Shown piece by piece: positions 30,501 to 33,500 of a stretch of DNA of 64,000 nt; positions within the stretch are counted from its first letter, which is position 1; every line of letters starts with the position of its first letter. The notes beneath the pieces are model-generated. The model was not told where the DNA came from, ran no database searches, and saw only the letters and a program-made list of their open reading frames with translations. The translations under genes were made by a program, and so were the position numbers. Source of the stretch: Candidatus Heimdallarchaeota archaeon (GTDB taxonomy: Archaea > Asgardarchaeota > Heimdallarchaeia > Heimdallarchaeales > Heimdallarchaeaceae). The stretch covers positions 1 through 64,000 of the forward strand of contig JABCTC010000004.1 of the NCBI GenBank assembly GCA_018238545.1, written 5' to 3'.

Positions 30501-33500
30501 GGAGCTAATTCAACAAGTAGATTGCTGCGAGTAAGCATATTGATTTTTTCAGCTTCCTTTTTATTCAAAGGAATCGGTGCAGTAATCAGTTTTTCAACGT
30601 CTATATCATATTTACTTTTCTTCTTTTCAGCAGATTTTGTTTCTGTTTGTTGTTCAATGTTAATTGTTTCTTTTTTACTGTCACTTGTTTGAGATGCAAG
30701 ATAATTGCAGATATCATTTATAGTTCTGAGCTCTGCAAGGTTGACAGAATCATCTATAGGTAAATCAAGAACATCTCTTAATTCGCCGAAAATTTCAGCT
30801 TGTTTAATAGTGTCAATACCTAGATCTTCCTCGAGATCCATATCACCGTCAATAGTTTCTGGTTCATAACCTGTTATTGACGCAACGATCTCGATAACTT
30901 TAGATTGAAGGTTCTCTGCTTGGACAGCAGCTGGTTTTGTTACTTTTTCAGTAGTTTGCATTGCCTTTGATGTATTTCTTCCAATATACTCTGCAATAGA
31001 ATTAGGAGTGGAGAAGTCTGCTAAGTTTACATTGTCATCAAAACCCAAATTCCAATTTTCTCTTACAATGCCAAATATTTCTGCTTGCTTCACAGTATCC
31101 ACCCCTAGATCTTCTTCAAGATGCATATCAGCTTCAATGAGTTGGGGTTCATAACCTGTTTTTTCAGCTATAACTTGAATTATATCACTCAAAATTTCTG
31201 AAAATTCTGTAGGAGCTTGGTTAAGTTTCACAGTAGCTGCTAATTCTCTTCGTTTCTTCAATTTCTTGCTTGTTTGAAGTTTCAATACTCTACCATCATA
31301 GAAGAAACCTTCTAAATTCCCCCCCAACTCTGCTAACCAAGAATCATAAGAATCAATGTCATATCTATCTTCATAAGTATTAAGTCTGAAAGCTGTAAAA
31401 GCTATTTGCGAACCAAAACCAGCAGCTAATCTAATAGCGTATTTTGCTCTCTTTTTCATTCCCTTTGAGAAATTTAAATCTTTGAAATTAGGATCAATTT
31501 CGTTTAAGTTTGCTATAGGCGGTATTATGCCTTTTTCCATTGATTTGATAGCAACACATTCCTCAATTCCTGCTCCCATAGCATGACCTGTAAAACCTTT
31601 AGTATTTACTATAACTAAATCAGCTACATCAGCACCAAAAATGTGCCTTAAAGATTCAACTTCAGATTCTGCACTACCTCCTCTAGCAGGAGTATAGGTC
31701 TCATGAGAGACGAATATACCTTCAGATGCTAACTCTTTTCTTGTAATATTATGCTGTGATTCTATGTCATTGACAAATGATTCAAATACACTATTGATAT
31801 GTTTGACATCCAATCTTGAACCGTGGAAAGCACTGTTCGCGAAAGTGGTCCCAATGAGATCAACAATAGGTTTAACTCCACGTTTTGTATAAGCTTGTTC
31901 ATTTTCTAACACTAATCCTGCAGCTACAGAACCAATGATTAATCCATGTCGGTTCTTACCGAAGGGTATTGCAGCTTCCTCGACCTTATCTTTTGTAGTA
32001 ACTCCACCGGCAACTAGGAATCCAGCGCCTATCCAAGGTAAAAGGTTATCACTAGAAGCATCATCTGCAGCTATTACGATTACTCGATTACACCGACCAG
32101 TTTTTATCCAATCTTCAGCAATTCCAATAGCTTGTGTTGTTGATGCACATGCAGCATTTATCTGTGTATTTGGTCCTTTTGCTTTAATCAGTTGAGCAAA
32201 CTGTGCATGTCCCATTGAGAGCACTCGATACAGAAATTCTCTACTGAAACTTTTTTCAGAATTAGGCGTTAAATGTTCAGTGATTTCTTTAATTAGATAA
32301 TCGTATCCTGGGAAAGCAGAAGCAAAGATTATTCCTGTCTCGTTTTGTAGACCTTCAGGCAAAGCCCATTCTCCTTCCAATACTTTTCCTGTTGTTGTTG
32401 TAAACTCGGATTTAACTAAAGGTATTCCAGCATCTTTTAGAGCTTCTAAACCAGCACAGATTGCTAATTGAAAAGTTATATCTAAGGCTTTTACAAGTTT
32501 GGGTTGTAATCCAAAATCTTCTACTGGATTAAATTCTCCTAGCTGTCCTGCTAAATTGATTACTTGTGACATATTTTCTATGCTTTCAAAAGTAGCATTG
32601 CCATCAGCTGATTTGATTAATCTAGTTATGTTCTTATTAATCATCTCTTGTTTAACTTCATCAGCTACTGAATCTATGAAATTTTCACCTAAAAGGACAG
32701 CATCTATATTGTCATCAGCAAAGACGTTTTTGCTCTTTCCTGGAATCCCAATTCCAACACCAGTAACACCTATTTTGATTTGGGAAGTGGTTGATTCTTT
32801 TATAGACATATCACGTTTTGTTTCCTTAGAAGAATCTATATCTACATATCTGGAATAAAGATCATATCCTTGTTTTAGATAATCATGTAAAACTTGATCT
32901 TTGCTTAATTGCTCAAATCCTAATGGTTTTTCAATTGTAGAGGATTGATAGGTAGCAACTGGTTTGTCTGTCTTTTCAGTAACATAGGTGGTTTCTGAAA
33001 TGACTTCTTGCGAGACTTTTCTTACACTTTCAATTGTTCTACTTAATTTCTCAATTTCATCTTCTTTTGGAACCAAAGTTGTAAACACTTGAACATCCTT
33101 TCTATTCTTCAATATGTCTTTCACAAATGAGTGGAGAGCTCTCTTTGGACCAACTTCAACAAATATTCTTCCACCTGCTTTGTATATCTCTTTAACTTCA
33201 TCTACCCATTGAACAGATGAACACACCTGGTCTAGAAGTAATTGTTGTACCTTTGTAGGATCTGACGGATATTTACTTCCAGTAACATTACTGAATGCAG
33301 GGATTTGTGGTTTGCTATATGTTAAGCTTGCTAATACTTTTCTCAGCTCTTTCTCAACGCTTTTAACGATTTTAGAGTGAAAAGCTGTTGATACTCTTAG
33401 TTTCTTCGCAGTTATCCCTTCTTCTATTGCAAGCTCAATAGCATCATCAATTCCCTTATCATCCCCTGAGATAACTGTTTGAGAAAGAGAGTTAATATTT

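What the first reader, a model, noticed from the sequence alone, without database searches (positions are those of the whole stretch)
31385..32780. Second, divergent KS keeps a full Cys-His-His triad and is not a chain-length factor
Seen: KS2 has NAACAS, an atypical SHETYTPARGGS in place of HGTGT, and TKGFTGHAMG. It sits between AT and the ACPs. Established: in PUFA synthases the chain-length factor lacks the catalytic Cys. Inference: two active KSs sharing one AT and one ACP set may divide labour (priming versus elongation, short versus long chains) or condense two acyl chains, as Pks13- or OleA-type enzymes do, giving long or branched lipids.
Basis: partly seen in the sequence, partly recalled or inferred. 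Interest (0 to 1): 0.7.

Follow-up and report, generated by a model that had tools for sequence, protein, structure and literature searches.

The report
Second active-looking ketosynthase in archaeal megasynthase
A giant fatty-acid/polyketide-type synthase of an Asgard (Heimdall-group) archaeon carries a second FabF-like condensing domain that the only published description of this enzyme family called an inactive "chain-length factor", yet it keeps every catalytic residue across hundreds of relatives and so is probably a second working ketosynthase.

Summary
KS2 is residues 1621-2090 of a 3363-aa ORF (window 31376-32785, minus strand) and lies between the AT and two ACPs. It has Cys1833, His1981, Lys2016, His2021 and the gating Phe2077.

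In 241 homologous KS2 domains, Cys is present in 240, both His in 241 and Lys in 240. The odd SHETYTPARGGS motif is nearly invariant. KS2 is as conserved as KS1.

Its model matches discrete FabF with a TM-score of about 0.89. In sequence searches it scores 65-73 bits against FabF-like proteins and finds no match to PfaC KS or CLF. Genuine PfaC CLFs lack the Cys, both His and the Lys.

A maximum-likelihood tree groups KS2 with type II FabF-like enzymes. An AU test rejects KS2 as a duplicate of KS1 (p 0.0013). It does not reject a sister relation to PfaC CLF (p 0.20).

The protein belongs to the uncharacterised "Type R" secondary lipid synthases (Shulse & Allen 2011), where this domain was labelled CLF. 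At least 591 species genomes encode relatives.

My best reading is a second active decarboxylating ketosynthase that shares AT and ACPs with KS1, as the two KS domains of PUFA synthases do. A Pks13/OleA-type coupling has no support. First readers of this scan noted the same feature in other genomes.

The parts
31376..32785 (-). KS2: divergent FabF-like ketosynthase domain (residues 1621-2090 of the megasynthase)
   Evidence: Pfam ketoacyl-synt N and C halves and NCBIfam fabF at 143.7 bits, below cut-off. phmmer boundaries. AF2 model pLDDT 89, with FabF as top structural match.
32147..32149 (-). Codon of Cys1833, the putative acyl-accepting nucleophile (NAACAS)
   Evidence: Aligned to the FabF active-site Cys. 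Cys in 240 of 241 homologues. Codon TGT.
31670..31708 (-). Family signature S-H-E-T-Y-T-P-A-R-G-G-S (residues 1980-1991) holding His1981. It replaces the usual HGTGTxxGD and lacks the usual Asp.
   Evidence: His in 241 of 241, Glu 241, Tyr 219 (Phe 20), Arg 236, GG 240/241. Motif comparison with FabF, type I KS and CLF. The peptide pattern SHETYTPAR was one of two used in a scan that found relatives in at least 591 species genomes.
31583..31600 (-). K-G-F-T-G-H: Lys2016 and His2021 (second catalytic His)
   Evidence: Lys in 240 of 241, His in 241 of 241. Aligned to FabF TKSxTGH. Codons checked.
31415..31417 (-). Phe2077 of A-A-G-F-G-S-Q, equivalent to the gating Phe of the FabF GFGG loop
   Evidence: Nearly invariant G-F-G-S-Q in alignment A1. 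Aligned to FGFGG of FabF-like enzymes.
34061..35500 (-). KS1: PfaA-type type I ketosynthase (residues 716-1195; Cys929, His1063, His1102)
   Evidence: Pfam and TIGR02813 PfaA-like matches. Triad 180 of 180 in homologues. Groups with type I/Pfa KS domains in the tree.
33068..33985 (-). Acyltransferase domain (residues 1221-1526; GHSLGE, xAFH)
   Evidence: Pfam Acyl_transf_1 1e-47 and fabD-like 7e-68.
30698..31186 (-). Two tandem ACP domains directly downstream of KS2
   Evidence: PF00550 matches at 30983-31186 and 30698-30901.
27554..37645 (-). Whole megasynthase ORF: ER(x2)-KS1-AT-KS2-ACP2-KR-DH-PPTase, 3363 aa
   Evidence: ORF list and translation. Domain hits.
37626..39203 (-). Acyl-CoA carboxylase carboxyltransferase subunit, overlapping the start of the megasynthase gene
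   Evidence: Pfam Carboxyl_trans 2e-188 and the mmdA/PccB-type subfamily.
26793..27557 (-). Alpha/beta hydrolase overlapping the megasynthase stop; candidate off-loading enzyme
   Evidence: Pfam Hydrolase_4, Peptidase_S9 and DLH hits.
24786..26790 (+). Biotin carboxylase and biotin carboxyl carrier protein genes
   Evidence: Pfam and NCBIfam accC-type and BCCP matches.
39300..40049 (+). Biotin-protein ligase
   Evidence: TIGR00121 birA_ligase at 115 bits, above cut-off.

Best explanation
KS2 is a catalytically competent, decarboxylating (Cys-His-His) ketosynthase of FabF ancestry, built into a PfaA-like iterative type I megasynthase of the 'Type R' secondary lipid synthase family. It was not copied from KS1. 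It has co-evolved with KS1 inside the same gene. Inferred mechanism: an acyl chain held on one of the two downstream ACPs is transferred to Cys1833. Malonyl-ACP, loaded by the single AT, is decarboxylated with the help of His1981, His2021 and Lys2016, and is condensed with the acyl chain. KS1 and KS2 then serve different elongation cycles, sorted by chain length or by the structure near the thioester. One of them probably also makes the acetyl primer by decarboxylating malonyl-ACP. Shown here: the residues, their conservation, the fold, the domain order and the relationships. Inferred: activity, sharing of AT and ACPs, and the split of cycles.
For: Catalytic set: the Cys, His, Lys and His align to the FabF catalytic residues. 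They are kept in 240, 241, 240 and 241 of 241 homologues. The gating Phe loop GFGSQ is nearly invariant.

Conservation: KS2 is as constrained as KS1. Mean identity to the window protein is 0.542 for KS2 against 0.519 for KS1. Columns at 95% or more conservation number 74 of 463 against 77 of 465.

Fold: the AF2 model has pLDDT 89.2 and pTM 0.90. The top 50 PDB matches listed by Foldseek are FabF/KAS II or mitochondrial KAS, with target TM-scores of about 0.83-0.91. PDB sequence and profile searches give FabF first, and none of the 60 listed hits is named as a type I KS or a PfaC chain.

Relationships: the tree splits {KS2 + FabF-like} from {KS1, PfaA KS, PfaC KS, PfaC CLF, modular KS} with SH-aLRT 100, and the KS1 and KS2 subtrees are congruent. 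A KS1+KS2 clade is rejected (p-AU 0.0013). KS2 shares the FabF-type xSA(F/Y)H motif, where type I KSs have SDG(K/R). True CLFs lack all the catalytic residues.

Context: the own genome has no other PF00109 condensing enzyme. Its single ACP_syn_III_C hit is of a kind also found in control archaea, so KS1 and KS2 must between them prime and elongate.

Precedent: the two KS domains of PUFA synthases are used differentially by chain length (PMC11962503).
Against: There are no biochemical data for any member of the family in the library I could search. The region after His1981 differs from every studied KS: Glu replaces Gly, Tyr replaces Gly/Ser, and Arg-Gly-Gly-Ser replaces Gly-Asp. The usual Asp is therefore missing, so the chemistry or the extender could differ. 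A sister relation to PfaC CLF is not rejected (p-AU 0.196). Whether KS2 pairs with itself or with KS1 could not be determined. Which cycles each KS serves is unknown.
Confidence: 0.6

Rival explanations
1. KS2 is a CLF-like partner. It forms an intramolecular pseudo-dimer with KS1 and shapes the KS1 acyl tunnel. Its own site serves mainly or only to decarboxylate malonyl-ACP for priming, not to elongate.
For: Shulse & Allen labelled the domain CLF in Type R synthases. The AU test does not reject KS2 as sister to PfaC CLF (p 0.196). The genome has no evident separate priming KS. FabF homologues are known to form KS/CLF-like heterodimers that decarboxylate malonyl-ACP (ladderane system, bioRxiv 10.64898/2026.05.19.726425).
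Against: The CLF-type partners examined here have lost the triad: myxobacterial PfaC CLF has Glu at the Cys position and lacks both His and the Lys, and the ladderane partner has a mutated triad. KS2 keeps Cys in 240 of 241 and is as conserved as KS1. An invariant Cys points to a covalent acyl-enzyme step. KS2 does not follow KS1 directly, as KS-CLF pairs in PfaC do; the AT lies between them. phmmer of KS2 found no hit to PfaC CLF.
Confidence: 0.22
2. KS2 carries out a non-canonical condensation: it couples two long acyl chains (Pks13/OleA-like) or uses an unusual carboxyacyl extender. The products would be branched or very long lipids.
For: The invariant Glu1982, Tyr1984 and Arg1988, and the loss of the usual Asp next to His1981, set KS2 apart from every studied KS. 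A PccB/AccD-type carboxyltransferase gene overlaps the synthase gene. This is superficially like AccD4 with Pks13 (my recollection, not tested here).
Against: KS2 is a FabF-type Cys-His-His enzyme with the residues of malonyl decarboxylation kept. It is not an OleA/FabH-type Cys-His-Asn enzyme; FabH models match only weakly, around the Cys. There is no ACP upstream of either KS, no FAAL and no TE. The AT has the xAFH signature usually read as malonyl-specific (established knowledge of AT motifs). The carboxylase set (biotin carboxylase, BCCP, carboxyltransferase, BirA) is an ordinary acyl-CoA carboxylase set.
Confidence: 0.1
3. KS2 is a catalytically dead structural relic that happens to keep its motifs in this genome.
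For: None specific. The domain is very divergent from FabF (about 20% identity) and scores below the Pfam-C and FabF equivalog norms.
Against: The catalytic residues are invariant across 241 homologues, from archaea to Acidobacteriota, Actinomycetota, Chloroflexota and Myxococcota among the named relatives. Overall conservation equals that of KS1.
Confidence: 0.03

Closest known systems
Type R secondary lipid synthase (PfaA homologue of Koribacter, Solibacter, Elusimicrobium, Roseiflexus; Shulse & Allen 2011, PMC3098273)
   Same: Same core order: KS, MAT, a second KS-like domain, tandem ACPs, KR, with an associated PPTase and sometimes a neighbouring acetyl-CoA carboxylase gene. A Roseiflexus homologue (P0119) matches KS2 at E = 3e-160 and carries SHETYTPARGGS and NTKGFTGH.
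   Different: The paper calls the second domain a CLF, whereas it has a full catalytic set. In the window protein the enoyl reductase (two copies), a DH and the PPTase are fused into the same chain, and the host is an Asgard archaeon. No product is known for any member.
FabF / KAS II, the elongating ketosynthase of type II fatty acid synthesis
   Same: Same fold (target TM-score about 0.89). Same Cys-His-His-Lys set, gating Phe and xA(Y/F)H motif. FabF-like enzymes are the nearest group in the tree and in pairwise scores.
   Different: KS2 has only about 20% identity and scores 143.7 bits against a cut-off of 493.75. It is a domain inside a type I chain, not a free enzyme. It has an extra conserved beta-hairpin (P0002 residues 144-162) and N-terminal extension. 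It has HETYTPARGGS in place of HGTSTPxGD.
The two KS domains (KS_A and KS_C/KS_B) and the KS-CLF didomain of PUFA synthases
   Same: It is an iterative, highly reducing PfaA-like synthase with more than one condensing domain working on shared tandem ACPs. The two PUFA KSs are used differentially by chain length (PMC11962503).
   Different: In PUFA synthases the second KS sits on another subunit and is fused to a CLF that lacks the catalytic residues. Both of those KSs are type I-like in the tree. Here the second KS is FabF-like, follows the AT in the same chain and has no CLF. There are no FabA-type DH domains, so polyunsaturated products are not expected (inference).
KS/CLF heterodimers of type II PKS and the ladderane FabF pair
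   Same: These are FabF-related proteins working as a pair of two different KS-fold units; one role is malonyl-ACP decarboxylation for priming.
   Different: In the ladderane pair one partner has a non-functional triad, and type II PKS CLFs are generally known to lack the Cys (established knowledge). Here both KS1 and KS2 keep theirs. Pairing of KS1 with KS2 is not shown.
Pks13 and OleA (chain-chain Claisen condensation)
   Same: Only the general idea of a thiolase-fold enzyme next to a carboxyltransferase gene.
   Different: OleA is FabH-like (Cys-His-Asn). Pks13 has an N-terminal ACP, a C-terminal TE and a FAAL partner (established knowledge). None of these is present here.

Membership tests
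Chain-length factor (CLF / KS-beta) of PUFA synthases and type II PKS | KS (thiolase) fold | tested here: met
   AF2 model pLDDT 89; Foldseek matches FabF at E = 1e-33.
Chain-length factor (CLF / KS-beta) of PUFA synthases and type II PKS | Active-site Cys replaced (Gln, Glu or other) | tested here: not met
   Cys1833 is present, and Cys is kept in 240 of 241 homologues. Myxobacterial PfaC CLFs have Glu there.
Chain-length factor (CLF / KS-beta) of PUFA synthases and type II PKS | Loss of the His-His-Lys catalytic residues (as in PfaC CLF) | tested here: not met
   His in 241 of 241, His in 241 of 241, Lys in 240 of 241. All are absent in PfaC CLF.
Chain-length factor (CLF / KS-beta) of PUFA synthases and type II PKS | Obligate heterodimer with an active KS | tested here: inconclusive
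   In the AF2 model of residues 716-1915 the truncated KS2 half had pLDDT below 60, so no packing could be read.
Chain-length factor (CLF / KS-beta) of PUFA synthases and type II PKS | Common descent with PfaC CLF | tested here: inconclusive
   The ML tree puts KS2 with FabF-like enzymes (SH-aLRT 100). However, a KS2+CLF clade is not rejected (p-AU 0.196). phmmer found no hit to CLF.
FabF (KAS II) equivalog | Score over the curated cut-off of TIGR03150 | tested here: not met
   143.7 bits against 493.75.
Cys-His-His elongating ketosynthases (KAS I/II-type condensing enzymes) | Cys nucleophile, two His, Lys and a gating Phe at the aligned positions | tested here: met
   Alignments to FabF structures and FabF-like proteins; conservation.
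Cys-His-His elongating ketosynthases (KAS I/II-type condensing enzymes) | Conserved Asp of the H-G-T-x-T-x-x-G-D motif | tested here: not met
   KS2 has T-P-A-R-G-G-S, and no Asp aligns at that position.
Cys-His-His elongating ketosynthases (KAS I/II-type condensing enzymes) | Measured decarboxylative condensation activity | not testable with these tools
   This needs an enzyme assay.
Type R secondary lipid synthase (Shulse & Allen 2011) | PfaA homologue with KS, MAT, a second KS-like domain, tandem ACPs and KR, plus an associated PPTase | tested here: met
   Domain order. Paper text. The Roseiflexus homologue shares the KS2 signature. Here the PPTase is fused and ER and DH are added.
PUFA synthase PfaA (TIGR02813) | Score over the curated cut-off, and partner genes pfaB/C/D | tested here: not met
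   873 bits against 1010.1. The neighbours include no PfaC-type KS-CLF-DH gene, and the genome has no other KS.
OleA / FabH-type condensing enzymes | Cys-His-Asn triad and FabH-like sequence | tested here: not met
   FabH models match only about 40 residues around the Cys, at E = 1e-4 or weaker. The triad is Cys-His-His.
Pks13-type condensase | ACP-KS-AT-ACP-TE order with a FAAL partner | tested here: not met
   There is no ACP before either KS and no TE domain. The Pks13 model scores 386.8 bits against a cut-off of 2100, and its best stretch lies on KS1 (residues 710-1192).

The most novel reading that the evidence does not exclude
The invariant Glu-Tyr-Arg signature (HETYTPARGGS) and the loss of the usual Asp may mark a new class of ketosynthase chemistry. 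KS2 would then use a different extender or acceptor than malonyl-ACP, or join chains in a way no studied KS does. The Type R synthases, including those of Asgard archaea, would in that case make a lipid class not yet described.
Probability: 0.12. Interest if true: 0.85.

Novelty: new variant of a known kind. Interest (0 to 1): 0.55.

Why it matters
Iterative fatty-acid and polyketide synthases normally use one condensing domain, and PUFA synthases are the studied exception. This result shows that a large, unstudied family places a FabF-type KS with a complete catalytic set after the AT of a PfaA-type module. Relatives occur in at least 591 species genomes of Acidobacteriota, Actinomycetota, Chloroflexota, Myxococcota, Thermoplasmatota and Asgard archaea. 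The published label for this domain, "CLF", is very probably wrong. That changes how the products of these clusters should be predicted.

In this Heimdall-group genome, KS1 and KS2 are the only KAS-type condensing enzymes. They sit in a cluster with its own acyl-CoA carboxylase, biotin ligase, PPTase and hydrolase. Understanding what each KS does is therefore part of finding out whether Asgard archaea make fatty acyl chains by an ACP-dependent route. That question bears on the archaeal-to-eukaryotic membrane transition.

Tried and rejected
1. Test for an intramolecular KS1:KS2 pseudo-dimer. The KS1-AT-KS2 span is 1375 aa, the shortest among 68 relatives examined, and exceeds the 1200-aa limit. 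I folded residues 716-1915 instead. KS1-AT came out well, but the truncated KS2 half had pLDDT of about 30-60, so nothing can be said about packing.

2. Natural split forms. Many 550-850-aa "stand-alone" KS2 proteins appear in the databases. In the four long loci I could inspect (L010, L012, L037, L041), the KS1-AT and KS2 frames overlap in different reading frames.

3. KS2 as a duplicate of KS1: rejected (p-AU 0.0013).

4. KS2 as sister of PfaC CLF: not favoured but not rejected. My references were only myxobacterial Pfa2/Pfa3 (L112, L121, L124), six FabF-like genes and six modular KSs, analysed with a quick LG+G4 search, and KS2 and CLF both sit on long branches.

5. Literature. Searches for the architecture (KS-AT-KS, KS-MAT-CLF), for Asgard with FAS/PKS/PfaA, and for Type R organisms found only Shulse & Allen 2011. 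Subscription journals are not covered.

6. An alignment of 50 full-length proteins was too large for the structure server, so I reduced it to 24.
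Full report
WHAT IS THERE

The finding lies inside a 10,092-nt minus-strand ORF (27554..37645) that encodes a 3363-aa protein, P0001. Pfam and NCBIfam give this order:
- two nitronate-monooxygenase/FabK-like enoyl reductase units (about residues 1-630);
- KS1 (716-1195), which best matches the PfaA subfamily model, though below its cut-off;
- an acyltransferase (1221-1526);
- KS2 (1621-2090);
- two ACPs;
- a KR, a PS-type dehydratase and a C-terminal 4'-phosphopantetheinyl transferase.

The flanking genes are as follows:
- an acyl-CoA carboxyltransferase, overlapping the 5' end of the megasynthase gene;
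- an alpha/beta hydrolase, overlapping the 3' end;
- a biotin carboxylase and a BCCP on the other strand;
- a biotin-protein ligase.

The closest homologues of the megasynthase are annotated as Heimdallarchaeaceae, other Heimdallarchaeota, Promethearchaeota/Lokiarchaeota, Thorarchaeota, Hodarchaeota and Kariarchaeaceae. More distant ones come from many bacterial phyla. The window is therefore from an Asgard archaeon of the Heimdall group.

CHECK OF THE OBSERVATION

The three quoted motifs are present. HMMER alignments to solved FabF structures place Cys1833 on the nucleophilic Cys and His1981 on the His of HGTST. They place Lys2016 and His2021 on the Lys and His of TKSxTGH. I checked the codons directly. 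The FabF gating Phe is also kept, as Phe2077 in AAGFGSQ. The stated coordinates match the domain boundaries I obtained (31376-32785).

CONSERVATION

I extracted 241 full-length KS2 domains from the homologues returned by the two large protein searches and aligned them.
- Cys is present in 240 (one Trp), both His in 241 and Lys in 240 (one Met).
- The unusual stretch S-H-E-T-Y-T-P-A-R-G-G-S is almost invariant: Glu 241, Tyr 219 plus Phe 20, Arg 236.
- In 179 proteins holding both domains, KS2 is as conserved as KS1. Mean identity to the window protein is 0.542 against 0.519. Columns at 95% or more conservation number 74 of 463 against 77 of 465. KS1 keeps its own triad in 180 of 180.
Of these, 591 were confirmed as relatives. 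They include Heimdallarchaeota, Thermoplasmatota, Methanobacteriota, Acidobacteriota, Actinomycetota, Chloroflexota, Myxococcota and Bacteroidota.
- The exhaustive HMMER search found 570 clusters (at 50% identity) with E at or below 1e-30.

WHAT KIND OF KS IT IS

- KS2 alone matches the fabF model best, at 143.7 bits and far below the cut-off of 493.75. It matches no Pfa or type I model.
- PDB sequence and profile searches list discrete FabF first, then type II PKS KS-alpha, mitochondrial KAS, FabB and KasA. None of the 60 listed hits is named as a type I KS or a PfaC chain.
- An AlphaFold2 model built with 40 homologues is confident (pLDDT 89.2, pTM 0.90). Its top 50 listed Foldseek matches are FabF/KAS II or mitochondrial KAS, at target TM-scores of about 0.83-0.91.
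- Relative to FabF, KS2 has a conserved extra beta-hairpin (P0002 residues 144-162, with an invariant Trp) and an N-terminal extension.

COMPARISON WITH GENUINE PfaC KS AND CLF DOMAINS

I fetched myxobacterial pfa clusters (pfa1/ER, pfa2, pfa3) from genomes that hold PfaD. I also fetched FabF-like genes and modular PKS KS domains from genomes that carry a Type R gene.
- phmmer of KS2 scores 65-73 bits against the three best of the six FabF-like proteins (36-50 bits for the others), 16.7 bits against one PfaA-type KS, and finds nothing in PfaC KS or CLF. KS1 scores 317-336 bits on PfaA KS and 171-184 bits on PfaC KS.
- A 74-row maximum-likelihood tree separates {KS2 + FabF-like} from {KS1, PfaA KS, PfaC KS, PfaC CLF, modular KS} with SH-aLRT 100. 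KS2 is monophyletic on a long stem. The KS1 and KS2 subtrees have matching topology, so the two domains have travelled together.
- An AU test rejects KS1+KS2 as one clade (p 0.0013). It does not reject KS2+PfaC-CLF (p 0.196). Both groups sit on long branches, so I treat a FabF origin as favoured, not proven.
- A motif table is the clearest evidence. The true CLFs read SAEE(H/R)SG at the Cys position and have no counterpart of either His or of the Lys. KS2 has all of them.
- KS2 also shares the FabF-type xSA(F/Y)H motif, where type I KSs have SDG(K/R). The one canonical residue it lacks is the Asp of TPxGD, which is replaced by TPARGGS.

RELATION TO WHAT IS PUBLISHED

A note from another agent of this scan (e1-5526105) pointed to Shulse & Allen 2011 (PMC3098273). 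I read the paper. Its "Type R" secondary lipid synthase (Koribacter, Solibacter, Elusimicrobium, Roseiflexus) is described as a pfaA homologue with the order KS-MAT-CLF-ACP(3-6)-KR and a downstream PPTase. In one case an acetyl-CoA carboxylase gene lies between them. The product is unknown.

A Roseiflexus protein is among the homologues of KS2 (E = 3e-160) and carries SHETYTPARGGS and NTKGFTGH. The window protein is therefore a member of that family, with ER, DH and PPTase fused in. The published "CLF" is the domain under study.

Full-text searches for the architecture, and for Asgard together with FAS, PKS or Pfa terms, found no other description and no biochemistry. [quoted passage not shown] This is why the cluster as a whole is of interest. 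That aspect belongs to other findings on this window.

HOW IT MOST LIKELY WORKS

Shown:
- a complete Cys-His-His-Lys set with the gating Phe;
- a FabF fold;
- constraint equal to that of KS1;
- a position directly before the only two ACPs;
- a single AT;
- no other KAS-type enzyme in the 3.63-Mb, 92%-complete genome;
- only one ACP_syn_III_C hit elsewhere in the genome, of a type also present in control archaea that make no fatty acids by this route.

Inferred: KS2 accepts an acyl chain from ACP on Cys1833 and condenses it with malonyl-ACP supplied by the AT. The AT has the xAFH signature usually read as malonyl-specific. KS1 and KS2 split the elongation cycles. One of them makes the primer by decarboxylating malonyl-ACP.

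The experimental precedent is the PUFA synthases, where the two KS domains take different chain lengths and recognise the structure near the thioester (PMC11962503). With ER, KR and one PS-type DH, and no FabA-type DH, a largely saturated chain seems more likely than a polyunsaturated one (inference).

RIVALS

A CLF-like structural or priming role paired with KS1 remains possible. The CLF-type partners examined here (PfaC CLF; ladderane FabF partner) have lost their triad, while KS2 has not. A Pks13/OleA-like coupling has no positive evidence beyond the odd signature and the neighbouring carboxyltransferase, and several defining features are absent. A dead relic is excluded by conservation.

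LIMITS

- I could not determine the pairing of KS1 and KS2. The fold of residues 716-1915 left the truncated KS2 at low confidence.
- The tree uses few references and a quick search.

VERDICT

"Not a CLF" is supported on catalytic residues. Division of labour is the best-supported mechanism but is untested. Chain-chain condensation is unsupported.

First readers of this scan noted the same feature in several other genomes. It is a new variant of a known kind: a second, FabF-derived active-looking KS inside a PfaA-type iterative module.

Noticed in passing
window 30698-31186 (minus strand); alignments A2 and A3: Both ACP domains read D-L-G-(V/I)-D-T, with Thr where carrier proteins normally have the phosphopantetheine Ser. 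The Thr is nearly invariant in the aligned homologues, and the bacterial members I looked at all carry DLGIDTV repeats. Another finding (e1-5526105) already reports this.
   Followed up: partly
KS1 and KS2 trees; loci L003-L082: In both subtrees the Asgard sequences form one well-supported clade. With FabF-like enzymes as outgroup for KS2, the deepest KS2 branches come from the unnamed representative library, so their taxa are unknown; the archaeal clade sits inside the sampled diversity. This suggests one old transfer into archaea followed by vertical descent. Thermoplasmatota and Methanobacteriota MAGs also carry relatives.
   Followed up: partly
own genome G000, contig C42:20741-20941 (minus strand): A free-standing 82-aa ORF matches PP-binding (29 bits, above cut-off). 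It is a possible discrete carrier protein outside the cluster.
   Followed up: no
own genome G000, contig C63:23970-24209 (minus strand): This is the only ACP_syn_III_C match in the genome, in a 365-aa ORF. It is probably the HMG-CoA synthase/FabH-like protein common in archaea, since control archaea also score.
   Followed up: no
window 21937-24575 (+): An opine-dehydrogenase-like gene overlaps a gene with a B12-binding domain and a weak methylaspartate-mutase-E-like match. Both lie just upstream of, and on the same strand as, the biotin carboxylase gene.
   Followed up: no
loci L010, L012, L037, L041: In these long-read MAG contigs the Type R gene is broken into overlapping ORFs in different frames. 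These are probably frameshift errors. Many 'partial' or 'stand-alone' KS2 proteins in the databases may be artefacts of this kind.
   Followed up: partly
proteins P0255 and P0005: These are the only exceptions to the catalytic set among 241 KS2 domains. P0255 has Trp for the Cys and an altered Lys motif. P0005, an 88%-identical Heimdall relative, has Met for the Lys. They could be sequencing errors or decaying copies.
   Followed up: no
window 40436-43646: Next to the cluster lie a purple-acid-phosphatase-like protein with CARDB and fn3 domains, and a 549-aa protein with PPC pre-peptidase domains. Both are probably secreted or surface proteins.
   Followed up: no
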